A stretch of 17,043 bases of DNA, taken from positions 1-17,043 of the IMG/VR virus record IMGVR_UViG_2802429225_000003; one strand, written 5' to 3'. The notes under the pieces are model-generated. The model was not told where the DNA came from. It saw only the letters and a list, made by a program, of their open reading frames with translations, and did no database searches. Position numbers and translations under genes: made by a program. Source of the stretch: a virus. Taxonomy: Duplodnaviria > Heunggongvirae > Uroviricota > Caudoviricetes. This document shows, piece by piece, positions 1 through 17,043 of this stretch (positions are counted from its first letter, which is position 1; every line of letters begins with the position of its first letter).

Positions 1-783
1 ATGGCGGCCGAGAAAAACGTGGAGCCCATCCATATTTCTACCGGCTTGGACTTCTGTTCGATCGCTACTAACGGCGAATCAAAGCGCAAGCGATATAACG
101 AAATTTGCACTAATTTGCAGTTCGACCATGTGGCTATCCTGCTCGATAAGCCGGGAGCAGGTACTCCGGAAGAAGGTGTCGGTATTTTTGTTAATGCCGA
201 CGGCAGCAAGTCAGAAATTGAATGCGTCAATCTGGCTGAGGCAAGTGAGCCGGATGAGGAATCAACGCTTTCCCTTATTTTTAACCAGCTAAAGGCGCTT
301 GTCGGCGCGAAAGAGGACCAAAACCCAATGAAAAATATGATTGCGAACGCGCTGAAGGCGGCGGGTAAAACCGTTGATGGTCTGAATGATGAACAGTTGC
401 TTCAGGCTTATAACTCACAGCTTGAAGAGACTGCAAAAAAGAAAAAGGAGGATGCAGAGAAAAAGGCAGAGGAGGAAGAAGAGAAGAAGAAAAAAGCTAA
501 TAACAGCGAGTCCATACCTGAGTGGTTCAAGCCGTTCGTAACGCAACTGGAATCTATCGCCATTAACTCGAAAAAAGACTCTGACAGCAAACGGTCGGCA
601 GTTAAAACAAAGTTTGGTCTGACAGACATTGCTGTAAACGCCCTTGATGGTGCTGCTCTTGATGAGATGTTTGCGCAAACCGTCACTGCCGCTCCTATTC
701 ACAGTGGCTTTCAACAATTCAACGTCAATCAGGACGACCAGTGGAAAGACTACGACCTGAATAAAATCGCGGAGGAAAAATAA
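1..783 (+). CDS. Head scaffolding / prohead protease-associated protein (possibly N-terminally truncated by the window edge)
   Basis: ORF abutting the window start, directly upstream of the decoration and capsid genes; contains a K/E-rich low-complexity segment ([21 protein letters not shown]) typical of scaffold-like proteins; stop overlaps the next start (TAATG at 781-785). Function inferred from position and composition only. Confidence 0.4.
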
Positions 784-3478: not shown

Positions 3479-3846
3479 TGGCTGCAAAAGTTAAAGGTAT
3501 TAACCGGGCAAAAAAACGGCTGGACCAACTGATAGACACAATCCAGGGGAAAAAAGCTGTTCGGGCTATTTATAAAGCGTTGTACATCGGAGGGGCGCAG
3601 GCTGCGCTGTATACCCCCATCGACACGTCAACATTAATCAACTCTCAGTTTCGCGATGTTCGTCCGGGGCAAAACCGGGTTACGGGCCGCGTTGGGTATT
3701 CAGCGGGCTACGCCATGTTCGTCCACGATCCGCAGGTGAAACAACAGTTCCGGCGCGCGACGGCCAAGAAGGAGTTCCTGAAGTTAGGGTTTGACGAAAT
3801 GCGCGACCAGATTGACAGAGCAGTAGCAGAGGAGATGCGCCTTTGA
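3478..3846 (+). CDS. HK97 gp10-family tail component (neck/tail completion)
   Basis: 122-aa ORF with a PIDTSTLINS motif resembling the conserved DTGxLxNS signature of HK97 gp10-like proteins; TAATG coupling to the upstream gene. Confidence 0.55.
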   Translation: MAAKVKGINRAKKRLDQLIDTIQGKKAVRAIYKALYIGGAQAALYTPIDTSTLINSQFRDVRPGQNRVTGRVGYSAGYAMFVHDPQVKQQFRRATAKKEFLKLGFDEMRDQIDRAVAEEMRL

Positions 3847-4297: not shown

Positions 4298-5047
4298 ATG
4301 GCTAGTTGCCAGAATGACTATGGAAAATTAATTGGGCGCAACGCAGTGCTTGAGGTTGTCGAGGGCTGTCCGGACACGGTGCCGCAGGAAGCCGACTGGA
4401 AGATCCTGGGGGCGATGACGACCAAATCGTTTGACCTGTCTCCAAACACCGTAACGTCAGAAGCAGACGACACGAAAGGCTTTGTTGAGGGACTGGTAAC
4501 CAGCGTGGACTTCACCATCTCTGGTGACGGCGAATGGCGTAAGCGTGATAAGCCTGGTGATTTCGGTCCGGCGTATATGACTCGCTATTACCTGCAGGAA
4601 ACAAAAGCGGGTCGCCAGCTGTCCGTGTGGGTTCGTCTGTCGTTTGCGACTATTACTATCACGGCGTACATGAATACCACAGCGTGGAGCGGAGAATTTG
4701 GCACTGGAGATATCGCGACATTCTCGGCTGAATTCAAAGTCGCAGATGCTGACAGCGTTACTGTAACGGATGACGGTGATATCGCTGTGACGAGTATAGC
4801 GGTTACGCCCAATTCACTCGGACTGAAAGTGGGAGAAAGCGGTACATTCAGCGTGAATTTTCTCCCTGCAAACGCGACAAACAAAAATTTCACCCTGGCT
4901 ACCGCCGCGCCTGCAATTGCTACAGCCAGCGTAGCAGCCTCCACTGTAACCGTAACGGCAGTAGCGGAGGGCTCGACTACGGTAACCGTGACCAGTGACG
5001 ACGGGAAATACACATCCAGTTGTGCAGTCACTGTAACGAGCGAGTGA
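4298..5047 (+). CDS. Major tail protein with C-terminal Ig-like (Big_2-type) domain
   Basis: Thr/Val/Ala-rich C-terminal segment (TVTVTAVAEGSTTVTVTSDDGK) typical of the Ig-like decoration domains on lambda gpV-type tail tube proteins; GAGG 6 nt upstream of the ATG at 4298 (an alternative ATG at 4283 lacks a Shine-Dalgarno). Confidence 0.7.
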   Translation: MASCQNDYGKLIGRNAVLEVVEGCPDTVPQEADWKILGAMTTKSFDLSPNTVTSEADDTKGFVEGLVTSVDFTISGDGEWRKRDKPGDFGPAYMTRYYLQETKAGRQLSVWVRLSFATITITAYMNTTAWSGEFGTGDIATFSAEFKVADADSVTVTDDGDIAVTSIAVTPNSLGLKVGESGTFSVNFLPANATNKNFTLATAAPAIATASVAASTVTVTAVAEGSTTVTVTSDDGKYTSSCAVTVTSE

Positions 5048-5051
5048 GAGT

Positions 5052-5708
5052 ATGGACGCACTTACAGATATCGGCGAAATGGTGATATCAACACGCGACG
5101 ATGATTTTTTTTTGCGTCCGTCTTTTATCGCTCTGACCCGAATCGGCTCTCCGGAAGAAATTGTGGAGGCGTACTCCATCATTAACGGCAGAGATTTTGG
5201 TGTACTGGTGCGCGCTGCGGAGTTGCAGGGAGTGCCGTCACCATGGCTGGTGGAATCTGTGAGCGGAACGGCATCCAGGCGAATGCTTAACGCCGCAATG
5301 ACGGTAATTCAGGCGTGTTGTGACAGGGATGCCACAACGCTGGTGGGGGAGCTGGCAGATGATTTGACTCGTCAACACGGCCTGATACCGGATACCGATA
5401 TGCTGATTATTGCGCGTGAATTACTGGAGCATGGCGTTATGGGCAAAGCGCCACTACGCAGATTGCAAAAGCACGAGAATCAGCAGACTTATACGGCAGG
5501 CTTTCGGGCTGTAGAGTATATCACCGCCGCACGTTCACACTTTGGACTTCCACGCGCCGAAGCGGAACAGCTCACAATGACCGCATTTCAGTTAATGCTT
5601 AAAGCGAAATACCCTGAAGAGAAAGGCTTCACCCGCGATGAGTACGATGGCATTATGGCTGCGCACGAGCAGCGGAAAATGCAAAAACTGGAAGCGATGA
5701 AGGCGTAG
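5052..5708 (+). CDS. Tail assembly chaperone (G/GT-like position)
   Basis: 218-aa ORF between the major tail and tape measure genes; GAGTGAGAG Shine-Dalgarno. No overlapping -1 frame extension of 60 aa or more is present downstream. Confidence 0.45.
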   Translation: MDALTDIGEMVISTRDDDFFLRPSFIALTRIGSPEEIVEAYSIINGRDFGVLVRAAELQGVPSPWLVESVSGTASRRMLNAAMTVIQACCDRDATTLVGELADDLTRQHGLIPDTDMLIIARELLEHGVMGKAPLRRLQKHENQQTYTAGFRAVEYITAARSHFGLPRAEAEQLTMTAFQLMLKAKYPEEKGFTRDEYDGIMAAHEQRKMQKLEAMKA

Positions 5709-5787
5709 TGGATTTATGTCAGAAGAATTTGCCGACGGCAGGTAATAGAAGAAAGCCCCGGAAACATTAAGCGTTCTGTAAGTAGCT

Positions 5788-5810
5788 AAATGTTTGCCGA
5801 GGCAACATTT
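5788..5810. promoter_or_regulatory. Imperfect inverted repeat (stem of about 10 bp) in an AT-rich intergenic region
   Basis: AAATGTTTGCC-GA-GGCAACATTT; lies downstream of both the + strand chaperone gene and the - strand acidic gene; no adjacent U-tract on either strand. Confidence 0.3.
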
Positions 5811-5901
5811 ATATGCTCAATACATTCAGATTAACCTTTTTCCCCCTCTTGGTTAAGGAGGCGACGGTTATTAAGTTACCAAAACAGGTGCTGCGCTTGT
5901 G

Positions 5902-6270
5902 TTATTCATGATGTGAATATTGCAAATCGTCAGCTTCACGAGATATATCAAAAAGGATATTTATCGCCAGAAGATATGCATTATCTACAACGCCATATGT
6001 CTCTGGAGTGATAGTGTTAGTATATCGATCGAAAGCATCTTCCAGGTAATCAAGCAAATCGTCATTTAAATACTCACTTCTCGGATCAAGCGCATGCAGA
6101 CCTTTAATACTCTCTCTATATTCGCTGAAGATTTTTGATATAAACGCTTGTTGTTCTGACCAATCATACAAATTAGCAATGGTAAGAGGCCTGTTAAGTT
6201 GTTCAAGTCGGGTGAGTTCACGAACCAACGACTGACAACCATCTCGAAGTTTTTCTGCTGTTAATGCCAT
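5902..6270 (-). CDS. Small acidic hypothetical protein (122 aa); antisense moron within the tail module
   Basis: Only convincing minus-strand gene in the window. The ATG at 6270-6268 is preceded by AGAGGG with a 6-nt spacer; the longer ORF-track form (to 6339) has no ribosome-binding site. Protein carries about 24 Asp/Glu against about 11 Lys/Arg. Flanked by AT-rich non-coding DNA. Confidence 0.55.
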   Translation of the reverse strand: MALTAEKLRDGCQSLVRELTRLEQLNRPLTIANLYDWSEQQAFISKIFSEYRESIKGLHALDPRSEYLNDDLLDYLEDAFDRYTNTITPETYGVVDNAYLLAINILFDISREADDLQYSHHE

Positions 6271-6412
6271 AATTAGCCCTCTGAGATTATTTATAGAAAG
6301 TAATATCTTACTATTTTTGCATTGAAGGCGGAGCTTCACCAGCCAGTTTTGTCAATTCAGTTATGGTGAGCGACTCCTGGCCTTCATGATGTATGACGAT
6401 GTAACAAGACCA

Positions 6413-6437
6413 CCTCGCTCCGGCGGGGTTTTTTATT
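6413..6437 (+). terminator. Hairpin plus T-tract just upstream of the tape measure start
   Basis: CCUCGC-UCCG-GCGGGG stem-loop (6 bp with one G-U pair, tetraloop) followed by TTTTTTATT, ending 15 nt before the tape measure ATG. Confidence 0.3.
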
Positions 6438-6451
6438 GCCCGGAGAATGAC

Positions 6452-9400
6452 ATGGCAGATGAGAAGAACGTCGGCAGTATCGTTTATGAAATAAGCGCAG
6501 ATGTCAAACCGCTGCTACAGGGCGGGAAGCAGGCCATTGATGCACTGGACAAACTGGATACTGCAGCCCAGCAGTCTGGAAGAGGGATGAGTAACCTGGA
6601 CCAGAGCGCGTCGCAAACCGGCACCACGTTTACTGAACTGGCCAGTTATGCTAACTCAATGGACAATCAGCTTCGTAAGCTGAACACCAGCGTGAGCGGT
6701 ATTGCGCGCGCGATGATGGAGGCTCGTACTGGTGTCAGCAGTACCACGAGTGAGTTAAATCGTGGCAATGCAGTAATTGAAGCACTCGGTAACCAGGTCG
6801 CAATACTTGAGGAAGCCCAGGAGAACGGAGCCAGAAGCGCAGCAGTTTTCGCCTCGCAGTTAAGAGCTGGTGCCAATGCTACGGAGGAAGAAAAGCGCAC
6901 TATCGCCGAATTGGCAGGCGTGTTTTATGATCTTAGCGCCGCCTCCGCTAAGGCTGCTAAATCAGCCGCATCGATGGCGGCCGCAACCCAACGTACAGAA
7001 TCATCAATATCCGGACTAGAGAAGGAAGTCTCTATTCTGAATACTGAGATGCAAACTGGTTCCAGAAGTGCTGCCATACTTGCTGCTCAGTTTAGTGCTG
7101 GTGAAGGTGCGTCTGACGCGCAAAAAGCCAAAATTGCACAGCTTGCAGGTGCTCTTTTTGATATGCGGGAGGCGCAAAAATCTGCATCTGCGGCATCAGC
7201 GGAGGCAGCTAAGCAACTTGCGCAGCAGGCAAATGAAGCGAACCGTATCAGCGGAATCACATCTGACCTTTCTAATCAAATAGCTATCCTGAGCGAACAG
7301 CAAACCAACGGAGCCCGCAGCGCAGCAATTCTGGCTGCTCAGTTACGAGCCGGAGCAAGTGCAACTGATGCCGATAAGCAGAAAATAGCCCAATTAACCG
7401 GGCAACTGTACGACATGAAGAACAGTGTCGATACAGGCACAAAAAGCCACGTCAACTGGAAAACCAGCGTACAGCAGGCCGGTTACCAGGTTCAGGACTT
7501 CATTGTTCAGGTGCAGGGTGGTCAGTCTGCTCTTGTTGCGCTCTCGCAGCAAGGATCTCAGCTTGCCGGGATTTTCGGCCCTGGCGGTGCGGTGGTTGGG
7601 GCTATAATTGCGCTTGGTTCTGTCCTCGCGGGCGTGTTGATTACGTCGCTGAATGGCGGCAAGAATGCCATGGTTGCGCTGAAAGAGGCTGCCGAGGCAA
7701 TGGACAAGGTGATCATCGTATCATCACAAGGTGTAGCCGCTCTTTCGGATAAATATGCGGCCCTTGCGCGTGTAAACGCTGACGTTGCAACGCTGCTCCG
7801 TAATCAGGCGCTGCTTGAGTATAACCAGGCCATTTCCAAGATACCGAAGGCCATAAGCGAAGCATCTGATGCTTTTATTACGTTCGGCGACCGTGCGATT
7901 GCCGCCGTTGGCGGGGCGTCGCCGAGCATCAAAAAATTCAACGCCGAGTTGTCCGCTCTCGGGGTCACTTCGAAGGAATGGGGAGAGGCAATTCAGCAGG
8001 CCAATAGTCAGGGGCAGTACGCATCTGGCATCGTAAACTCGCTGTCATCAACGGTGAATACACTTTCATCCCGACTTGGAATAAGCAAACAAGCTGCGTT
8101 TGATTTGGCAAGAGAATTGTCAAATCTGAGTAATAACCCATCACCGGAAGCACTTCAGGAGCTGGCGAAAAAACTCCAGGACATGAAGTCGTCATCCACT
8201 GACGGGCAGTCGGCCATCGCAGGACTGGCGGGTAAGCTTGTTGATCTGGCGAGAGAGGCAGCCAACGCGAAGATCAATGTAGACAGCCTGAATCAGTCCA
8301 CCGATAACCTGACCGCCGGACAGAAAAACCTTATCAAGCAGTCCGGACGTAACCTTGCCCTGTCAAAACTACAGGGTGAGGCTCGGGCCCGCCTGCAGGC
8401 ACAGTATGCCGCTGAAGATGCGGGATTTTCGAAGGACGATCCGCACGCCAAACAGATGGAGAACGACGCCGCAGCTACGTACAAAAATACGCAGGCGCAG
8501 AAAGATTTCCAGTCAACACATAAGAAAAGCATTTCACTGGCTGATTCTGTTGCTCAGAAGTTAGCGAATCTCAAGCAGCAATCGGAGCTCGCAGCCGACT
8601 CAACAAATGAGCTGAGCCGTGAGCAGGCCATGCTGACTGCGCAGCAGTCTCTTGGTAAAGGTGCAACCAAAGAGCAGATCGTATTAGCTGGTCAGTATGC
8701 AGCAAAAAAATGGGATACAGCCAACGCCATAAAAGCTGAAGCAGCGGCCCGAAAGCTCCTCCCTGAAGCAGCAGAGAACGCCAGTTACAAACAGGATGTT
8801 GAAGATCTGAATACCGCCCTGGCTGCGAAGAAAATAAGCCAGGAGCAGTACAATCAAACCTCGGAAAGACTGGCAGCAACACACCAGGCTAACCTCGCAA
8901 AAATTCAGTCGCAGCAGGTGGTAACGCCTCAACAGGAACTTGCGGCGCAGGTTGATCCCGTTCAGCAACTGGCGAATGAGAACGCAAAGAAACTGATACT
9001 CATTGATGAGTACAACAAGGCTGCGCTTGCAATCGTAAATGCAAGGCTGGCTAATGAGTCGCTAAGTCAGAGTGAAGCTGCTGCACAGTCAGCCGCTATT
9101 AACGCAAATACTCTTGCGTTAAAAAATACTCAGGAAACACAGTATGAGGAACAGAGGCTGGCAGCTCTGGAGCAGCAGTACCGTGCGCAATCAGTGTTGA
9201 ATGACTTTACGATGGATATGATCGACGCAGTCGGGCAACGAACCACCAACGCAATCACCGGCATTATTACCGGAACGCAGTCAGCAACAGATGCGCTACG
9301 AAATATGGCTTCAACAATTCTTGATCAGGCCGTTGGTGCTTTAGTTCAGATGGGTGTCCAGGCACTTAAAAACATGCTGATAGGGCAGTCAGCCAGTGCT

Positions 9401-9910
9401 GCTTCTGTTGCGCAGGCTGCAATAACAGGGCCTGCCATTGCCGCAGCATACAGCCCGGCAGCGGCGATGGTTTCGCTCGCATCATTTGGTGCAAATGCCG
9501 CAGCAGCTCAGACGGGGATCGCTTCAACAATGGGACTTACAAAAATGCTGTCCGTCGCTGGCGCTCGCTACAACGGTGGCCCGGTTTCCGCTAACTCAAT
9601 GTATCGCGTAGGTGAAAACGGCAAGCCAGAAATATTCCAGGCCAGCAACGGCAGTCAGTACATGATCCCCGGCGATAACGGACGAGTTGTCAGCAACAGA
9701 GATATGCAGGGCGGAAATAGTTCATCTCCTGTAAATATTGTCATTAACAATACGGCAGCGGGAACCGTTGTAGAAAATCAGGGTTTTAATCCGGACACGA
9801 AAACTATCACCCTCGCAGTGAACGAAGTCGCAAGGCAATTACGCTCGCATACGGGGGTAGTTGCTCGTGCATTGTCTGATAGCTGGAACACCACAGGAAA
9901 GGCACAATAA
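6452..9910 (+). CDS. Tail tape measure protein
   Basis: Longest ORF (about 1152 aa from the ATG at 6452, which has GGAGA 5 nt upstream; the upstream ATG at 6386 has none). Ala/Gln-rich helical composition, internal tandem repeats, a central hydrophobic Gly-rich segment (AGIFGPGGAVVGAIIALGSVLAGVLITSL) and placement before the tail-tip genes. Confidence 0.85.
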   Translation: MADEKNVGSIVYEISADVKPLLQGGKQAIDALDKLDTAAQQSGRGMSNLDQSASQTGTTFTELASYANSMDNQLRKLNTSVSGIARAMMEARTGVSSTTSELNRGNAVIEALGNQVAILEEAQENGARSAAVFASQLRAGANATEEEKRTIAELAGVFYDLSAASAKAAKSAASMAAATQRTESSISGLEKEVSILNTEMQTGSRSAAILAAQFSAGEGASDAQKAKIAQLAGALFDMREAQKSASAASAEAAKQLAQQANEANRISGITSDLSNQIAILSEQQTNGARSAAILAAQLRAGASATDADKQKIAQLTGQLYDMKNSVDTGTKSHVNWKTSVQQAGYQVQDFIVQVQGGQSALVALSQQGSQLAGIFGPGGAVVGAIIALGSVLAGVLITSLNGGKNAMVALKEAAEAMDKVIIVSSQGVAALSDKYAALARVNADVATLLRNQALLEYNQAISKIPKAISEASDAFITFGDRAIAAVGGASPSIKKFNAELSALGVTSKEWGEAIQQANSQGQYASGIVNSLSSTVNTLSSRLGISKQAAFDLARELSNLSNNPSPEALQELAKKLQDMKSSSTDGQSAIAGLAGKLVDLAREAANAKINVDSLNQSTDNLTAGQKNLIKQSGRNLALSKLQGEARARLQAQYAAEDAGFSKDDPHAKQMENDAAATYKNTQAQKDFQSTHKKSISLADSVAQKLANLKQQSELAADSTNELSREQAMLTAQQSLGKGATKEQIVLAGQYAAKKWDTANAIKAEAAARKLLPEAAENASYKQDVEDLNTALAAKKISQEQYNQTSERLAATHQANLAKIQSQQVVTPQQELAAQVDPVQQLANENAKKLILIDEYNKAALAIVNARLANESLSQSEAAAQSAAINANTLALKNTQETQYEEQRLAALEQQYRAQSVLNDFTMDMIDAVGQRTTNAITGIITGTQSATDALRNMASTILDQAVGALVQMGVQALKNMLIGQSASAASVAQAAITGPAIAAAYSPAAAMVSLASFGANAAAAQTGIASTMGLTKMLSVAGARYNGGPVSANSMYRVGENGKPEIFQASNGSQYMIPGDNGRVVSNRDMQGGNSSSPVNIVINNTAAGTVVENQGFNPDTKTITLAVNEVARQLRSHTGVVARALSDSWNTTGKAQ
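6750..7440 (+). repeat. Three in-frame tandem repeats of about 77-84 codons inside the tape measure gene
   Basis: Recurring peptide units NGARSAAVFASQLRAGANATEEEKRTIAELAGVFYDL / TGSRSAAILAAQFSAGEGASDAQKAKIAQLAGALFDM / NGARSAAILAAQLRAGASATDADKQKIAQLTGQLYDM, with cores starting near 6824, 7055 and 7307. Confidence 0.6.
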
Positions 9911-10897: not shown

Positions 10898-11326
10898 ATG
10901 ACAAAAGATGAATTTATCCGGCGCGCCGTTGGCCTGCCGTGGGTTGATCGCGCCTGTAGCTGGCGAGCGATGGACTGTTGGGGCGTGGTGGTTATGTATT
11001 TTCGCTATGTCTACGGCGAGGAATTGCCCTGTGTTGAGGGGTATTCCAGCGGCGAAATCAAAATCACCGACGGATTTCAACGCCAAATCCAGAGTGGTAA
11101 ATGGCGGCGCGTTGAATCCCCCGAGGGTGACTGTATTGCATTTATGTTGTTTAAGCAGGGCGTGGCCTCTCACGTTGGCGTGGTTGTGGATGGGCAATAT
11201 GTTTTACACGCCGCAGGTGATGCGCAACATGAGGGGCAGGTGCGCTGCGACCGACTTGATACATTCAGACGGTTTCATCGAGGGGAAATGATTTTTTATG
11301 CCTGGGAGGGGGGCCGATGCTTGTAA
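10898..11326 (+). CDS. NlpC/P60-family tail-associated peptidase (gpK-like)
   Basis: 142-aa protein with a Cys-containing motif (AMDCWGVVV) and a downstream His-rich segment (SHVGVVVDGQYVLHAAG) consistent with the NlpC/P60 Cys-His catalytic core; position matches the lambda K / gene transfer agent g14 slot. Confidence 0.6.
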   Translation: MTKDEFIRRAVGLPWVDRACSWRAMDCWGVVVMYFRYVYGEELPCVEGYSSGEIKITDGFQRQIQSGKWRRVESPEGDCIAFMLFKQGVASHVGVVVDGQYVLHAAGDAQHEGQVRCDRLDTFRRFHRGEMIFYAWEGGRCL

Positions 11327-13832
11327 TTTATCGCGATCCACGCGGTTTGCTGGTAAGGATGTTTATGAGTTCGATTATTCACTTTCCCTGCAAGATAATA
11401 TCGCAAAGCACTTTCCCGGCGGGCTTGATGCCAGCACGACGCTGATTACATGGAACGGTTGCAAAATTAACCCACTTGAAGTTGACTTGTCGCGCCTCGC
11501 GACGCCGCTGGATCACCTGGAAATCATCATCCGACAGCAGGGGATTGGCACCATGCTGATTGTGGCCATCGTGGCGGCAGTTGCTACGGTTGTGCTGATG
11601 CCTAAGCCCACAATCCCCAACTCCAGTGGTTCGCAGAAAGATTCACCTAATAACGATCTCACAGGACAAACCAACGTCGCACGGGTATATCAGGCAGTTC
11701 CGGATATTTACGGTAAGATCCGCGCCTTTCCCGACCTTGTGGCTCCCTCCTTATCTGAATATATAAACAACGTTAAAAACGTAACCGAGGTGTTGTGCGT
11801 TGGGATTGGCGATTATGAATTTGAAAACGTCAAATATGCAGACACATTACTGAGCACCATTGGTGGCGCGTCGTATGAAATATTTAACCCCGGCGACACC
11901 ATTCCAATACTGTATGACGCAGCTGAATCACCGGACGTTGACGGCCAGGAAATTACACCGCCAAACCTGGGCGACACGGTTCTGTATAGCGCGACGACAA
12001 ACAATATTGTTGCTGTTGAGTATGCGAAGGGCAGTAAGGCAATGTCTTTCACGGTACCTAAAAGCGCTGATTTTCAATATTTTGTCGATAAATCAAAGCC
12101 GATTAATGTGAGACTGACGGTAAATCTTGAATATTCAGTTGTCAGCGGCAACGGTAAGACAACAACGAAGAAAGGGGAGTTTCAGGTCAGTGGACAGATC
12201 GTCAGTATTGGTCAGTCAGATAATGGAGATATTATCGCTCCAGAGAACTATTACGATATTGGCATAGATAACGCAACGGTAAGTAACGACTTCCCGGCTG
12301 ATGGCGTCATTACAGGTGATTACCTGAAAATTGAGGATATGGAGGCGTTATTTGTCGGGCCGTTCATCATGGCTTCTGATTCTGATGAAATCTGGTACAA
12401 CGTCATTTTTCAGCGCGGACTGGACGGAACCGCAAATTTAAACGCTGAGTGGTGGCGGGTAGACAAAGACAATAATGTGATTGAGGGGACAGAGGAATCA
12501 GATTCTTTTTCCTATAGCAATGATACGTATGAAGGGCAGTATTTCACTCGCAAGATTATCCCGAAAGCCGGGCGTGGGCGCTACGCATTCCGTATTTCTC
12601 GCACTAATAACGGCAGCGATCAGCTTACTGACCAGGCCAAACTGGAAGAAGTTTATTCAGTTCAGGTTCGACGAAATGTTCGGGTGCAGGACACATTAAT
12701 TCGCTGCGTTACTCCAGCAACGGAACAGGCAACCGGCATTAAAGACCGAAAATTTAATGCTGAGGTGACACGGAAAACGATTACATGGAACGGATCTGGG
12801 GTGGTAGGTGCGTTGACCCCAAGCCGTGATTTTGCTGATGCAGTACTTCATTCGTTTGTCAGGATTGCAGGTCGCGCTGCCAGTGAGCTGGATCTTGATG
12901 CGTTGTACAGTATCAGTCGATCCCTTAAAAACAAGAATGAGCGCATGGGATGGTTCGATTTCTCATTCGATGACAAAGACATCTCACTCGGTCAGCGATT
13001 GCAAACCATATGTAATGCAGCGCGTGTTACGGTATTTCGTGACGGGCTGAAGTGGCGTTTTGTGCGTGACGAGAAGAAAAGCATTATCTCTGCGCAATTT
13101 GATGCCCGTAATCTGGCGAACGTCGATGATGGCGGTACGCTTCAGTATAAGGGACACCTGCCGACAAGTTACGATGGGATTGAACTGGAATGGGTGGACG
13201 CCACGGATACAAATGATGATGGCACAGATAAAAAGGCGTACATCCGATTACGCATTGACGCGTCTCGCAAACGTATTGTGGAAGGCACTTCAAATCGCCC
13301 CTATAAAATCCAGCTTGCCGGGTGCCGCAACAAAGACCAGGCGATGAATCGTGCGCAGCTTGAAGCGAGGCGACTTATCTATCAGCGACTGAGTGTGGAG
13401 GATACGGCACTTAACGATGCGTGGATGCTGTCGCTTGGTGATCGGGTGCGCTGGGCTGACGTTTACGATGAGGCGATTGCCAGCGGTGAAATATTGTCAA
13501 TTGACGGTAATGTGTTCACCACTTCTGAAACTCTCATTTTTGAAAGTGGGGAAACATACAAAGTCAGTATCACAGATCAGTACGGATACCCTTCAGCATG
13601 GATAAGCGCATTGCCAGTAAATGGTAATAAAAGCGCCTTCAGTACTGATTTCAGCAAGGCTTATACCGCCGACGGCATTACTTCCATGCTTGGCAGTCGT
13701 TTCATTATGACGCCTTCAGTTGCCAGTGAACCTATGGATTTCACGCTTACTGAGAAAGGGCCTGGAAGTGACCCTTCACAAACCAGGATCTCGCTCACTC
13801 AATATGATGAACGAGTGTACGAATACGATTAA
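11298..13832 (+). CDS. Tail tip / host-specificity protein (J-like), possibly with an I-like N-terminal region
   Basis: 844-aa ORF overlapping the upstream gene by 29 nt; hydrophobic helix (GIGTMLIVAIVAAVATVVLMP, about nt 11541-11603) followed by a YGKIR motif reminiscent of the C-terminus of tail assembly protein I family members; large protein in the slot before the tailspike. Confidence 0.55.
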   Translation: MPGRGADACNLSRSTRFAGKDVYEFDYSLSLQDNIAKHFPGGLDASTTLITWNGCKINPLEVDLSRLATPLDHLEIIIRQQGIGTMLIVAIVAAVATVVLMPKPTIPNSSGSQKDSPNNDLTGQTNVARVYQAVPDIYGKIRAFPDLVAPSLSEYINNVKNVTEVLCVGIGDYEFENVKYADTLLSTIGGASYEIFNPGDTIPILYDAAESPDVDGQEITPPNLGDTVLYSATTNNIVAVEYAKGSKAMSFTVPKSADFQYFVDKSKPINVRLTVNLEYSVVSGNGKTTTKKGEFQVSGQIVSIGQSDNGDIIAPENYYDIGIDNATVSNDFPADGVITGDYLKIEDMEALFVGPFIMASDSDEIWYNVIFQRGLDGTANLNAEWWRVDKDNNVIEGTEESDSFSYSNDTYEGQYFTRKIIPKAGRGRYAFRISRTNNGSDQLTDQAKLEEVYSVQVRRNVRVQDTLIRCVTPATEQATGIKDRKFNAEVTRKTITWNGSGVVGALTPSRDFADAVLHSFVRIAGRAASELDLDALYSISRSLKNKNERMGWFDFSFDDKDISLGQRLQTICNAARVTVFRDGLKWRFVRDEKKSIISAQFDARNLANVDDGGTLQYKGHLPTSYDGIELEWVDATDTNDDGTDKKAYIRLRIDASRKRIVEGTSNRPYKIQLAGCRNKDQAMNRAQLEARRLIYQRLSVEDTALNDAWMLSLGDRVRWADVYDEAIASGEILSIDGNVFTTSETLIFESGETYKVSITDQYGYPSAWISALPVNGNKSAFSTDFSKAYTADGITSMLGSRFIMTPSVASEPMDFTLTEKGPGSDPSQTRISLTQYDERVYEYD

Positions 13833-13855
13833 CAGATAACTCCTGTTCACCAATG

Positions 13856-13878
13856 CTCGCCGCTGTGCGGGTTTTTTT
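13856..13878 (+). terminator. Putative intrinsic terminator after the tail-tip gene
   Basis: CUCGC / GCGGG stem (5 bp) with a 6-nt loop, followed by a T7 tract. Confidence 0.4.
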
Positions 13879-13889
13879 ATGGAAAAATT

Positions 13890-15864
13890 ATGGCCACACG
13901 TTACAACACCAATAATCCTGTGCCGTCCCATGCGGTTAAAGATTACAGCAACAACGCCCAAATCATTGATGAACTTGTTCATAAACAGGAATCAACAACA
14001 AAAGACCGGTTCGGAAAAGATCTGAAAACCTGGTACGGAATTAATAAAGAGGCGACCGACGCAACGAACGAGTTCATCGAAAACGGTCAGAATGCAATAA
14101 ATACGTTTAACCAGAATGGCAAGGATGCTATCGATAAATTTAGCAACGATAGCAATGCTGCGATTAATGATTTCGAGAGTGATGCGAATCAGGCGATAAT
14201 TAATTACGGTTATATTCTGGTTGACTCATTTCAGATCGGTGCTGAGATCACGCTCCGGAATCAGGCTCTTCACTGGCCTGCGCCAGAGGGTGACGGAGAA
14301 TATTATCGCTGGGACGGTGAATTGCCGAAGACGGTTCCAGCCGGAGCTACGCCGGAAACGTCAGGTGGGGTTGGGCCGGGAGCGTGGATTGACGTTGGTG
14401 ATGCTTCGCTGCGTAGCGATCTGGCGTCTGGAGGTAAGGCTGCATTGGTTGGCTATGGCAGCGCGACTGTAGAGGGTGCTCTTGACGATCTTTATGCCGC
14501 TAACGCTGCTCAGGGGGGGAAACTGGTTTTGATACTGTTGGCCACTTTCTTAATCTGACTGAATTACGTGCGCAGGCGCCTGCTTCAGCCGGAATGATTG
14601 TATATGTTGTTTCAGCAGCCAGCTTGTCACATGCAGAAACTCATCTTGGCGGCGGTTTTTTTGAGTCAGTCGATAATGTCCAGGCATGGCCTGATGATGG
14701 TGGTATTGTAATTAAACCAGACACAGGGTCGATTGTGTGGCGACGCATTAACTTCACCTCATACGATATGCAATTCTGGGGTGTCAAGCCGGACGGGGCT
14801 ACAGATAATGCGGAGGCAATTACGAAGGCCACACAGTATGCAAAGATGAATAAAGTTATCCTGGATGCACCCGCAGGGAATATTAACACAAGCGAAATGG
14901 TCCCTATTTATAATAATATGGGGATTCGAGGCCACGGAAAGGCTGAAGCTACGGTTTTCTATAAAACAACTAACAATATTTTTAATTATAAAAAAATGGA
15001 ACCACAGTTTTATCTGTGGACGCATTGGTAGGTTTTGTTCCAAATAATTGGGATCTTGCTGACTCTTCAATGGATTCATTTTGCTCTAACGGCAGAATTG
15101 AGAGCTGTATGTTTCGTAGACAGGGACTTGACCAATCAAACGTTGACACCTACAGAAATTATTATGGGTTGTTTTTTGGGAAGGCTGCTGCACCTGTAGT
15201 TCGGCAATGTTCATTTGAATGCGCATATATTGGATGTTATTCATACTGTCCATTCTCAGGAGTCATGGAAATGGTTGCATTCCCTCAATATGCAGGGAAG
15301 GGGTATGGTGGGATCGTTTTTGAGGATTTTCGTGGCGGTCAGATAAGGGTAATTGGTACATCAATGGACATGCGTCTTGTTCAAATAAGCGGTTATCAGT
15401 TTGGTTTTATTTTGTCAGGAATGCAATATACAACAATGACAAACTGTACTGCAGAAAATTGCACTCCAATGGCTGGAGAAACGACTTGCTTTGCATTTAG
15501 CTTCATGAACCCTTATTGTATTGTCATGAATACGTGCGCAACAGAAGAAGTAAAGGGCGGGCAGTTAAGAGTAATAGTTCAAGGAGATCCGTCTTTCAGA
15601 CCATCTTTAATTATAAATGGATTTTTGCCTATAGGTCAGAAAAACCCAATTTCAACAACCCCAATCATTTATGTAGACAATGCGGGCCTTGCAGAAACCA
15701 GCGTGATAATTAACGGAGGTGATTGGGCTATAAGTCCATCAGCAACCAACCTTGTCGCACCATCGGCTAGTGGTGGTGGCACGAAGGTCAGAATGATAGG
15801 AGTCAATGGCTCACCTAAATCAATTTGGACCATCTCCGCTAACGCCGATGTGCAGGAGTTTTGA
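13890..15864 (+). pseudogene. Tailspike / depolymerase-like receptor-binding protein, interrupted by two frameshifts at homopolymer tracts (or intact if the tracts are under-called)
   Basis: Three consecutive ORFs in three frames (13890..14558, 14594..15031, 15016..15864). Adding one G to the G7 run at 14513-14519 and one A to the A7 run at 14990-14996 gives one continuous protein of about 658 aa. It has an Asn-rich repeat N-terminus, an LRSDLASGGKAALVGYG segment, a beta-helix-like start (FWGVKPDGATDNAEAITKATQYA) and a Cys-rich C-terminal part. Confidence 0.6.
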
Positions 15865-15927
15865 TTCCCTGTCATTGACATAGCATCTATATGAAACTAC
15901 CCTGCCAGAAACTACACATATTTTGGC

Positions 15928-17043
15928 ATGGTTATGACTAAGAAAAGCAATATAATACATAGTCTTACTTCATTGAGGATGTTTGCTGCCCTTGGCGTGT
16001 TTGTAAGCCATCTGGGAATTTTGTCTCAGTCCTCAATACATCAGTTCAACATAGCTGCAAAATACTTTTTTAATGGGTATGTTGGCGTAACGTTCTTCTA
16101 TATCCTCTCTGGCTTTATTATTAATTACAGTTTTAGCAAGCATTTATCTGAGGGGATGTTTAGCAATAAAGACTTTATTATCTATCGTCTGGCCAGACTA
16201 TTCCCTGTTCATCTTGTTTCACTGGTCTGTGTTCTGTTTTTATTCGGCTATGCAAATAATTGGGGATCTACAAACAAAGAAGCTTTATTCTATAATACAT
16301 TTCTACTTCAATCATTCATACCTGATGCAGGCTATTACTTTTCGTTCAATCCTGTATCATGGAGCATTTCATGCGAAATGTTCTTTTATTTTTGTTTTTG
16401 CCTACTCGTTAAATGCAAAACCAAATATCTCGTATTTCTATTTGCTGCCGTTCAGACTGTAAATGTTTACTTCCTTATACAACCACCAACAGGAATTTCC
16501 TTGCATTGGTTATTCTATATAAATCCTGTATTCAGGATTACAGATTTCATCCTTGGCATTATTATATGTAGAATATTTCTTTCGAAGCCTGTTACTCCAA
16601 AAGTTGTGGCGTGTAGCGCAATGGAATTTGGCTCAATTATTTTTCTAGTGTTAACAATTTATGTGGCAACAAACTACGTGGGCAATATGAATGTTAAATA
16701 TGATCTTTTATATATCCCTTGCATGGCTTCTATTGTTGTTGCGTTTGCCTTTAATGGTGGGGTTATTTCTCGTATTCTTGCAAATAAATATTTAATTTTG
16801 CTTGGAGAAGCTTCATTTTCTTTCTACATGTTCCACTGGATGATAGTATCTAAGTTAATAGAAATAATACAACCTAACAAAAACGATGTGCGTGATGTCA
16901 CTATTTATATAGTTAGCTGCTTAATCAGCTCCGTATTTGTCTCTGTTATTTCGTTTAAATTAATTGAAATGCCAGCAAATAAGTTAATAAGGAATACGTG
17001 GGTAAAGATTAAAATTCAATTACACACAAGAAAACGCGCATAA
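15928..17043 (+). CDS. Acyltransferase-3 family integral membrane protein (O-antigen acetyltransferase-like, probable lysogenic conversion gene)
   Basis: 371-aa strongly hydrophobic multi-pass protein; N-terminal LTSLRMFAALGVFVSH matches the conserved Arg/His-containing first helix of acyltransferase-3 (OafA/Oac-type) enzymes; very low GC; immediately downstream of the tailspike. Start could be the ATG at 15934 instead. Confidence 0.7.
   Translation: MVMTKKSNIIHSLTSLRMFAALGVFVSHLGILSQSSIHQFNIAAKYFFNGYVGVTFFYILSGFIINYSFSKHLSEGMFSNKDFIIYRLARLFPVHLVSLVCVLFLFGYANNWGSTNKEALFYNTFLLQSFIPDAGYYFSFNPVSWSISCEMFFYFCFCLLVKCKTKYLVFLFAAVQTVNVYFLIQPPTGISLHWLFYINPVFRITDFILGIIICRIFLSKPVTPKVVACSAMEFGSIIFLVLTIYVATNYVGNMNVKYDLLYIPCMASIVVAFAFNGGVISRILANKYLILLGEASFSFYMFHWMIVSKLIEIIQPNKNDVRDVTIYIVSCLISSVFVSVISFKLIEMPANKLIRNTWVKIKIQLHTRKRA

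What the first reader, a model, noticed from the sequence alone, without database searches (positions are those of the whole stretch)
13890..15864. Tailspike reading frame broken twice, each time at a 7-nt homopolymer
Adding one G to the G7 run (14513-14519) and one A to the A7 run (14990-14996) fuses the three ORFs into one coherent tailspike with a continuous, sensible sequence across both junctions. Two independent breaks, both single-base deficits in long homopolymers, point to either (a) systematic homopolymer under-calling by the sequencing platform, (b) a decaying receptor-binding gene in a cryptic prophage, or (c) slipped-strand switching of the receptor-binding protein. The third would be the interesting case, since homopolymer phase variation is well established in bacterial surface genes but not typical for phage tailspikes.
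Basis: seen in the sequence. Interest (0 to 1): 0.65.

Follow-up and report, generated by a model that had tools for sequence, protein, structure and literature searches.

The report
Twice-frameshifted prophage tailspike pseudogene
A tailspike gene in an Escherichia marmotae prophage really is broken by one-base losses in a G run and an A run, but it looks like an ordinary dead gene in a decaying prophage, not a sequencing error or an on/off switch.

Summary
G7 (14513-14519) and A7 (14990-14996) sit in the only two stretches where the reading frame can change. Adding one G and one A gives a 658-aa protein that aligns in one piece with intact tailspikes (57-77% identity); the A junction, FNYKKNGTTVLSVDAL, matches three of them exactly.

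It is not an assembly error. The window is 100% identical to an E. marmotae-group contig (PTSR01000003.1). The same G7+A7 allele is in at least 6 loci from separate sequencing records, including 3 SNP genotypes and a complete genome. The other four long runs in the window are in frame.

It does not look like a switch:
- No in-frame allele of either tract exists in the ~15-billion-protein collection.
- A7 is invariant.
- A diverged sister copy has G9, also out of frame and needing the opposite correction, which also argues against programmed frameshifting.
- Intact relatives have no runs at these sites.

The same prophage also carries a G10/G11 run in its portal gene, broken in 4 of 5 contigs, and a sister tailspike allele is broken by an unrelated +2 insertion. 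The downstream acyltransferase stays intact.

Verdict: a replication-slippage pseudogene in a decaying prophage; low interest.

The parts
13855..13878 (+). Terminator-like hairpin plus T7 run between the TipJ stop (13832) and the tailspike start
   Evidence: One search reports a stem of 6 pairs followed by a T run. Function was not tested.
13890..14558 (+). Tailspike fragment 1 (frame 0, 222 aa): N-terminal virion-anchor region with a Tail_spike_N domain. The last 12 residues after the G run are out-of-frame junk.
   Evidence: Pfam PF18668, E=1.5e-17. PHROG tail fibre and tail spike families. PDB sequence matches to CBA120-type tailspike N-terminal regions.
14513..14519 (+). G7 run, frameshift site 1. 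G8 would be in frame; a sister copy has G9.
   Evidence: G9 was deduced from two ORF products of the sister contig and is the only run length from 4 to 12 that reproduces both.
14504..15031 (+). Tailspike fragment 2 (frame 2 open stretch; called ORF 14594-15031, 145 aa): linker and first third of the beta-helix receptor-binding domain
   Evidence: It aligns to intact homologues from ETGFDTVGHFLNL onward. The precomputed Pfam hit is PF27114, weak.
14990..14996 (+). A7 run, frameshift site 2. A8 would be in frame. It is invariant in all copies seen.
   Evidence: Intact relatives read TAT AAG AAA AAT/AAC or TAT AAG AAG AAT here.
14992..15864 (+). Tailspike fragment 3 (frame 1 open stretch; called ORF 15016-15864, 282 aa): remaining two thirds of the beta-helix and the C-terminus
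   Evidence: phrog_38237, E=1e-152, profile positions 416-697 of 697. Alignment.
15934..17043 (+). Intact Acyl_transf_3 gene (369 aa), the cassette partner of the tailspike receptor-binding module and probably an O-antigen acetylase (lysogenic conversion)
   Evidence: Pfam PF01757, E=8e-20. Exact protein found in 9 contigs. 61% identical to the gene in the same position in phage TL-2011b. The same adjacency is seen in L012, L018 and L019.
11298..13832 (+). Intact TipJ / central tail fibre J-like gene (844 aa) immediately upstream; context showing the rest of the tail module is open
   Evidence: phrog_469, E=3e-173, and phrog_31 'central tail fiber J'. NCBI name.

Best explanation
This is a real, inherited pseudogene of an O-antigen-type tailspike, a parallel beta-helix depolymerase. 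It lies in a temperate siphovirus prophage of Escherichia marmotae integrated next to yecA-tyrP-ftnA. Two lineage-specific homopolymers arose in the gene: A8, probably through a synonymous AAG>AAA change, and G8 in a variable linker. Replication slippage then removed one base from the A run. That lesion (A8>A7) is shared by both known copies, so it is the older one, and it cuts the beta-helix after about a third. With the gene already dead, the G run drifted to G7 in this lineage and to G9 in a sister copy. Only a 222-aa N-terminal stub and two C-terminal fragments without normal starts can be made, so no functional spike is produced. The prophage as a whole is decaying, because its portal gene is also broken at a polyG run in most copies. 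The downstream acyltransferase, which benefits the host, is kept intact. Shown here: the lesions, their fixation across isolates, the absence of in-frame alleles, the absence of the runs in intact homologues, and the portal lesion. Inferred: the order of events, the ancestral G8 and A8 lengths, the O-antigen specificity, and the loss of function.
For: (1) Repair by +1G and +1A gives a protein collinear with intact tailspikes. The A junction FNYKKNG(T/V/A)TVLSVDAL is identical to P0003, P0004 and P0064.
(2) The identical G7+A7 allele is in L006-L011 at 99.95-100% identity over 4-13 kb, with 0, 2 or 6 SNPs. These come from NCBI assemblies GCA_002965345.1 and GCA_049959075.1 (complete genome) and from separate SRA or ENA runs.
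(3) The sister copy, on a 49-kb Logan contig, has A7 and G9. Its TipJ differs at 17 of 826 residues, its capsid protein at 4 of 353 and its tailspike at 5 residues, so the A7 lesion predates that divergence.
(4) There are no in-frame alleles. The best full-length hit among 5.8 billion clusters is 64% identical. The three clusters that hold the fragments contain no fused form. Exact look-ups of the G8A8, G8A7 and G7A8 products are all absent.
(5) Intact relatives lack the runs: AAG AAA, AAG AAG or ACA AAA at the A site, and no polyG at the G site.
(6) The other runs in the window (A7 at 3510, T9 at 5105, A7 at 8704, T7 at 14656) are in frame.
(7) The portal gene of the same prophage has a G10 run that splits it into 122 + 363 aa in 4 contigs, against an in-frame G11 in 1 contig.
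(8) A different tailspike allele in the sister prophage is broken by a +2 insertion that is not in a long run, in 15-17 contigs, so tailspike loss recurs in these resident prophages.
(9) In E. coli, indel rates rise exponentially with run length, and 8-bp G.C runs are strong hot spots (PMC8510543).
(10) The A junction maps to residues 314/315 of the AlphaFold model of intact relative P0001, inside beta-strands with pLDDT above 90. The fold matches tailspike depolymerases.
Against: No read-level data were available, so minority in-frame subpopulations cannot be excluded. The G9 call rests on one short-read contig whose DNA I could not retrieve. dN/dS could not be measured, so relaxed selection is inferred rather than shown. 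The rest of the tail module (tape measure, TipJ, minor tail proteins) and the capsid gene are intact and nearly identical across isolates, so the prophage is not heavily degraded and the lesions may be recent. The copies carrying G7+A7 are nearly clonal (at most 6 SNPs in 13 kb), so 'fixed in many isolates' may reflect only one or a few ancestral events.
Confidence: 0.8

Rival explanations
1. Sequencing or assembly artefact: the true genome has G8 and A8, and the platform under-called both homopolymers.
For: Both lesions are one-base deficits in homopolymers, the classic error signature. Some assemblies of the same prophage disagree at a longer run, the portal G10 versus G11.
Against: The same G7 and A7 appear in at least 6 loci from separate records: two NCBI assemblies and four Logan assemblies of different SRA or ENA runs, including 3 SNP genotypes. 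RefSeq lists the fragments as MULTISPECIES proteins. T9, T7 and two other A7 runs in the same window are in frame. A diverged sister copy shares A7 and has G9, which is an excess and not an under-call. The platforms themselves could not be checked with these tools.
Confidence: 0.03
2. Contingency locus: the tailspike, and perhaps the portal, is switched on and off by slipped-strand mispairing at the runs, giving the prophage population heterogeneous particle production or host range.
For: The G tract differs between related copies, G7 versus G9. A second, longer polyG (G10/G11) in the portal gene of the same prophage is seen in both in-frame and out-of-frame states. There is precedent in Campylobacter phage receptor-binding genes (Sorensen 2021, cited in PMC10877375) and in T2 agt and T4 rIIA (bioRxiv 10.1101/2025.10.21.683753).
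Against: No ON allele of either tailspike tract was seen in about 11 contigs or in the whole protein collection. A7 is invariant, so the gene is off whatever the G tract does. The ON state needs two simultaneous events. The runs are not conserved in intact homologues. Runs of 7-8 bases are short for high-frequency switching in a mismatch-repair-proficient enterobacterium (general knowledge). Homopolymers of 6 or more bases are depleted in coliphage tail-fibre genes. A sister tailspike allele is inactivated by a lesion outside any long run, which points to relaxed selection rather than switching.
Confidence: 0.08
3. Recoding: full-length tailspike is made from the G7/A7 DNA by two programmed -1 ribosomal frameshifts or by transcriptional slippage at the runs.
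For: Both shifts are in the -1 direction. A P-site slip of Lys-tRNA on AAA AAA A would give YKKNG. A 6-bp hairpin starts 5 nt after the A run, at 15002-15019.
Against: The sister copy has G9 and would need the opposite shift, so the site is not a conserved recoding signal. All homologues encode a single ORF without the runs. There is no structure downstream of the G run (z = +0.36), and the hairpin after the A run is weak (-9 kcal/mol, z = -1.9, matched by 10 of 200 shuffles). The A run lacks a proper heptamer because the preceding base is T. Yield would be the product of two inefficient events, for a protein needed as trimers.
Confidence: 0.03

Closest known systems
Phage lambda PaPa stf (side tail fibre) frameshift versus Ur-lambda (Hendrix & Duda 1992, as described in PMC12617516)
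   Same: In both, a siphovirus with an intact central fibre (J or TipJ) has its accessory receptor-binding gene split into separate ORFs by a frameshift, and the lesion is inherited stably.
   Different: Here there are two lesions, both at homopolymers. The gene is an enzymatic beta-helix tailspike rather than a fibre. The element is a resident prophage whose portal gene is also damaged. Whether particles still form is unknown. The exact sequence context of the lambda lesion was not checked here.
PolyG phase variation of receptor-binding genes in Campylobacter Fletchervirus phages (Sorensen et al. 2021, Cell Rep 35:109214, cited in PMC10877375)
   Same: In both, a homopolymeric G tract inside a phage receptor-binding gene changes length and shifts the frame.
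   Different: In the Campylobacter phages both ON and OFF states coexist and were shown to be functional. Here no ON state is seen, a second fixed lesion (A7) keeps the gene off, and the tract is short and not conserved.
Contingency loci in coliphages T2 (agt) and T4 (rIIA) (bioRxiv 10.1101/2025.10.21.683753)
   Same: Both involve reversible-type frameshifts at homopolymers of 6 or more bases in coliphage genes.
   Different: Those were shown by reversion assays and read-level heterogeneity in lytic phages. The same study found such runs depleted in tail-fibre genes. Nothing comparable could be measured here.
Tailspike plus acyltransferase cassette of Stx phage TL-2011b (E. coli O103:H25) and P22-like prophages
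   Same: The receptor-binding domain is 57% identical and the downstream acyltransferase 61% identical, in the same order. The same pairing occurs in Yersinia aldovae, Cronobacter-type and other prophages.
   Different: Those tailspikes are intact and sit on podovirus-type or other N-terminal anchor domains. This copy has a CBA120-like Tail_spike_N anchor on a siphovirus and is broken.

Membership tests
Phage tailspike (parallel beta-helix depolymerase) | N-terminal virion-anchor domain | tested here: met
   PF18668 Tail_spike_N, E=1.5e-17, residues 113-171. PDB sequence matches to N-terminal regions of CBA120 TSP1-4 and other tailspikes.
Phage tailspike (parallel beta-helix depolymerase) | Beta-helix receptor-binding or catalytic domain, collinear with intact members | tested here: met
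   One-piece alignment with TL-2011b. An 11-homologue alignment has many invariant columns on both sides of both junctions. The AlphaFold model of intact relative P0001 matches tailspike depolymerases, with Foldseek E down to 2e-14.
Phage tailspike (parallel beta-helix depolymerase) | Single uninterrupted ORF able to give a full-length subunit | tested here: not met
   The sequence is in three frames, with stops at 14556-14558 and 15029-15031.
Simple-sequence contingency locus (phase-variable gene) | Homopolymer inside the coding sequence whose length sets the frame | tested here: met
   G7 and A7 lie in the only possible frame-switch stretches.
Simple-sequence contingency locus (phase-variable gene) | Tract-length polymorphism among close relatives | tested here: inconclusive
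   The G tract is G7 in about 10 contigs and G9 in 1. The A tract is A7 in all of them.
Simple-sequence contingency locus (phase-variable gene) | Both ON and OFF alleles occur | tested here: not met
   There is no fused or full-length allele in the 5.8-billion-cluster search, in the clusters that hold the fragments, or by exact look-up.
Simple-sequence contingency locus (phase-variable gene) | Within-population length heterogeneity and measurable switching | not testable with these tools
   This needs raw reads or amplicons from the strains.
Programmed -1 frameshift or transcriptional slippage site | Slippery motif in the correct phase | tested here: inconclusive
   G_GGG_GGG is in phase at site 1. 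Site 2 is T_AAA_AAA, which is not a canonical heptamer.
Programmed -1 frameshift or transcriptional slippage site | Stimulatory structure downstream of the slippery site | tested here: not met
   Site 1 has no structure (z = +0.36). Site 2 has only a 6-bp hairpin, z = -1.9, matched by 10 of 200 shuffles.
Programmed -1 frameshift or transcriptional slippage site | Shift site and direction conserved in relatives | tested here: not met
   The sister copy has G9, which needs the opposite shift. Intact homologues are single ORFs without the runs.
Pseudogene in a defective prophage | Disrupted relative to intact homologues, with the lesion inherited across isolates | tested here: met
Pseudogene in a defective prophage | Other essential phage genes also damaged | tested here: met
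   The portal gene is split at a G10 run in 4 contigs, including the complete genome, and is intact (G11) in 1.
Pseudogene in a defective prophage | Relaxed selection (dN/dS near 1) | not testable with these tools
   The DNA of the only diverged copy could not be retrieved. Only 5 amino-acid differences are visible.

The most novel reading that the evidence does not exclude
The prophage carries a set of hypermutable runs: portal G10/G11, tailspike G7/G8/G9 and perhaps A7/A8. These would act as stochastic switches, so that only rare cells in a lysogen population can release infectious, spike-bearing particles. That would be a prophage-borne contingency system in an enterobacterium. The consensus assemblies would then show only the majority OFF state.
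Probability: 0.06. Interest if true: 0.6.

Novelty: already known. Interest (0 to 1): 0.15.

Why it matters
As found, it matters little. It is one more case of a prophage losing its adsorption apparatus by slippage at mutational hot spots while the host keeps the useful conversion gene.

There are two practical points. The three RefSeq 'hypothetical proteins' (WP_157945140, WP_157945141 and WP_157945142) are fragments of one tailspike pseudogene. Homopolymer frameshifts seen in one assembly can be separated from artefacts by looking up the exact fragment products in independent assemblies.

If the contingency reading were true, it would extend phage phase variation to temperate enterobacterial phages and to a portal gene. 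The evidence here points away from that.

Tried and rejected
- Megablast of the region against complete E. coli genomes and GenBank phages found nothing. The host is E. marmotae and no close cultured phage exists; the best capsid-protein match is 59%.
- The scan of GTDB representative genomes found only distant relatives.
- I could not get the DNA of the G9 sister contig. Look-ups through identical neighbouring proteins returned only the window's own lineage. Four pattern scans of the viral and metagenome collections that allowed variable run length found nothing. So dN/dS and a direct reading of the G9 run were not possible; G9 was deduced instead from two ORF products.
- A second homologue search with the middle fragment returned only its own cluster.
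An intact relative was modelled instead.
- No tRNA gene lies at the prophage's right end.
- Programmed frameshifting was considered because the G run is in heptamer phase and a hairpin follows the A run. It was rejected on the G9 allele and the weak folds.
- The sequencing-artefact reading was rejected on multi-assembly agreement and in-frame control runs.

Full report
**Observation**

The window has G7 at 14513-14519 and A7 at 14990-14996. Three ORFs in frames 0, 2 and 1 cover 13890-14558, 14594-15031 and 15016-15864. Frames 0 and 2 are simultaneously open only over 14504-14558, which contains the G run. Frames 2 and 1 are simultaneously open only over 14992-15031, which begins inside the A run. 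Only 7 runs of 7 or more bases exist in the 17-kb window, so two such coincidences have a chance of about 5e-4. Adding one G and one A gives a 658-aa ORF.

**What the gene is**

The repaired protein has a Tail_spike_N domain (PF18668, E=1.5e-17). Its N-terminal region matches solved CBA120-type tailspikes. It aligns in one piece, residues 11-658 at 57% identity, to the tailspike of Stx phage TL-2011b from E. coli O103:H25. It is 57-77% identical to many intact tailspikes.

In a 12-sequence alignment, homology resumes right after the G run (ETGFDTVGHFLNL against the consensus KTGFNxVGRFLNL). The A junction FNYKKNGTTVLSVDAL is identical to three intact proteins.

An AlphaFold model of the intact relative P0001 is a confident beta-rich domain from about residue 250. 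Its best Foldseek matches are tailspike depolymerases. The G junction maps to a low-confidence linker. The A junction maps to residues 314/315, inside beta-strands with pLDDT above 90. The A7 lesion therefore removes about two thirds of the receptor-binding domain.

**Context**

The window is the late region of a temperate siphovirus prophage:
- capsid gene (1226-2287)
- major tail protein
- tape measure (6386-9910)
- minor tail proteins
- TipJ, the central fibre J-like gene (11298-13832)
- the tailspike
- an intact Acyl_transf_3 gene (15934-17043)

The window is 100% identical to PTSR01000003.1 (Escherichia sp. MOD1-EC5950, an E. marmotae-group strain). In the chromosome the prophage ends next to yecA-tyrP-ftnA.

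The receptor-binding module and the acyltransferase travel together in unrelated phage backbones:
- a related siphovirus (L012)
- a prophage contig of unclassified backbone, with lysis genes following the pair (L018)
- a P22-like prophage of Yersinia aldovae (L019)
- TL-2011b, whose acyltransferase is 61% identical

This adjacency was seen.

**Is it an artefact? No.**

The exact 222-aa product is in 10 contigs. Six loci were read:
- the complete genome CP188181.1
- PTSR01000003.1
- Logan assemblies of SRR35967244, SRR3987709, ERR12509513 and SRR18551723

All six carry G7 and A7, with 0, 2 or 6 SNPs relative to the window over up to 13 kb. The window's other long runs (A7 at 3510, T9 at 5105, A7 at 8704, T7 at 14656) are in frame in otherwise open ORFs. 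I could not verify the sequencing platforms.

**Is it a switch? The evidence points away.**

A diverged sister copy lies on a 49-kb Logan contig. It differs from the window at 17 of 826 TipJ residues, 4 of 353 capsid residues and 5 tailspike residues. It yields ORF products ending ...AAQGGGNWF* and starting MTIFMPLTLLRGGETGF.... Only a G9 run reproduces both. Its middle fragment still reads ...NYKKMEPQ..., so it has A7. The A lesion is therefore shared and older, and the G run has gone to -1 in one lineage and +1 in the other. Both are out of frame.

No in-frame allele was found:
- The full-length search found nothing above 77% identity over any part, and nothing above 64% over the full length.
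- The three clusters holding the fragments contain no fused form.
- A search with the middle fragment returned only its own cluster.
- Exact look-ups of the G8A8, G8A7 and G7A8 products are all negative.

Intact relatives read TAT AAG AAA AAT/AAC, TAT AAG AAG AAT or ACA AAA AAT at the A site, and have no polyG at the G site. The runs are therefore lineage-specific accidents and not a conserved device. A published survey found homopolymers of 6 or more bases depleted in coliphage tail-fibre genes.

**Is it recoding?**

A 6-bp hairpin starts 5 nt after the A run. But the G9 allele needs the opposite shift. There is no structure after the G run (z = +0.36). The A-site hairpin is weak (z = -1.9, matched by 10 of 200 shuffles). 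This reading is rejected.

**State of the prophage**

Upstream of the window, the portal gene of the same prophage carries a polyG run. G11 is in frame (472 aa) in one contig. G10 splits the gene into 122 + 363 aa in four contigs, including the complete genome. The related prophage has GAG GGG GAG GAG at that position.

In that related prophage the tailspike has a different receptor-binding domain, and it is also broken. The lesion is a +2 insertion at a short A run, giving 167 + 526/566 aa in 15-17 contigs. An intact 710-aa allele exists in 5 contigs. Its downstream acyltransferase-SGNH gene is intact. Tailspike loss with retention of the conversion gene therefore recurs in these resident prophages.

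**Mechanism**

In E. coli, indel rates rise exponentially with homopolymer length, and 8-bp G.C runs are strong hot spots (PMC8510543). The simplest history is as follows:
1. A8 arose through a synonymous AAG>AAA change.
2. It then slipped to A7.
3. After that loss of function, the G8 run drifted to G7 or G9.

The order of events and the ancestral run lengths are inferences.

**Comparison with known cases**

The nearest analogue is lambda PaPa, whose side-fibre gene stf is split by a frameshift while the central fibre J suffices for infection (PMC12617516). True phage contingency loci exist: Campylobacter phage polyG tracts (Sorensen 2021, cited in PMC10877375) and T2 agt and T4 rIIA. This locus fails the key test for membership, which is the coexistence of ON and OFF alleles.

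**Verdict**

This is an ordinary pseudogene made by replication slippage. Interest is low. A residual 6% goes to a prophage contingency system, which read-level tract counts would settle.

Noticed in passing
L023:5635-5645; L024:5636-5645; L025:5636-5645 (same prophage, about 5 kb upstream of the window start): The portal gene carries a polyG run. G11 is in frame (472 aa) in one Logan contig. G10 splits the gene into 122 + 363 aa in four contigs, including the complete genome CP188181.1. The related prophage L022 reads GAG GGG GAG GAG at the same place. This is by far the longest run in the prophage and the best candidate for real hypermutability.
   Followed up: partly
L032:4447-4950 and 5001-6581 (also L033, L034): A sister prophage of E. 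marmotae has the same tailspike N-terminus joined to a different receptor-binding domain, and it too is frameshifted. The lesion is a +2 insertion (GGA GAA TAT becomes GGG GAA AAT AT), giving 167 + 526/566 aa in 15-17 contigs. An intact 710-aa allele (P0126) exists in 5 contigs. One Logan contig has a further break that is reproduced by G6>G4 at L032:5991.
   Followed up: partly
window 13890-17043; L012:10001-12977; L018:6001-9286; L019:3001-6017; L031:3252-6522: The beta-helix receptor-binding module is always followed by an Acyl_transf_3 gene. The pair moves between siphovirus, P22-like podovirus and TL-2011b-type backbones with co-varying identity (57% and 61% to TL-2011b). It looks like a mobile 'recognise and then modify the O-antigen' cassette.
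   Followed up: partly
window 5105-5113: A T9 run, the longest in the window, lies in frame near the start of the DUF6246 gene (5052-5708) between the major tail protein and the tape measure. It is also T9 in the diverged relative L022.
   Followed up: no
window 5902-6339 (- strand): An ORF on the opposite strand (145 aa; called as 122 aa in the assemblies) lies between the DUF6246 gene and the tape measure. It has no Pfam match. It may be a moron inside the tail operon.
   Followed up: partly
window 1-783: The 260-aa ORF at the window start is the 3' part of a 390-aa gene. Contig PTSR01000003.1 begins only 96 nt upstream of the window, so this assembly breaks inside the prophage.
   Followed up: yes
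L024:5711-6802 (P0153, P0155): NCBI names the portal protein and its fragment 'anti-CBASS protein Acb1 family', while the precomputed Pfam hit is Phage_portal_3 (another source calls it DUF1073). The name is probably misleading.
   Followed up: no
L001:2842-4311: A contig binned as 'Acinetobacter sp.' (MAG JAVXBC010000141.1) encodes a P22-type head-binding tailspike 75% identical to this enterobacterial receptor-binding domain. This is probably mis-binning of an enterobacterial phage contig.
   Followed up: no
window 15002-15019: An inverted repeat, CCACAG-TTTTAT-CTGTGG, starts 5 nt after the A7 run. It is weak (-9 kcal/mol, z = -1.9). On the minus strand the scan scores it as terminator-like.
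   Followed up: yes
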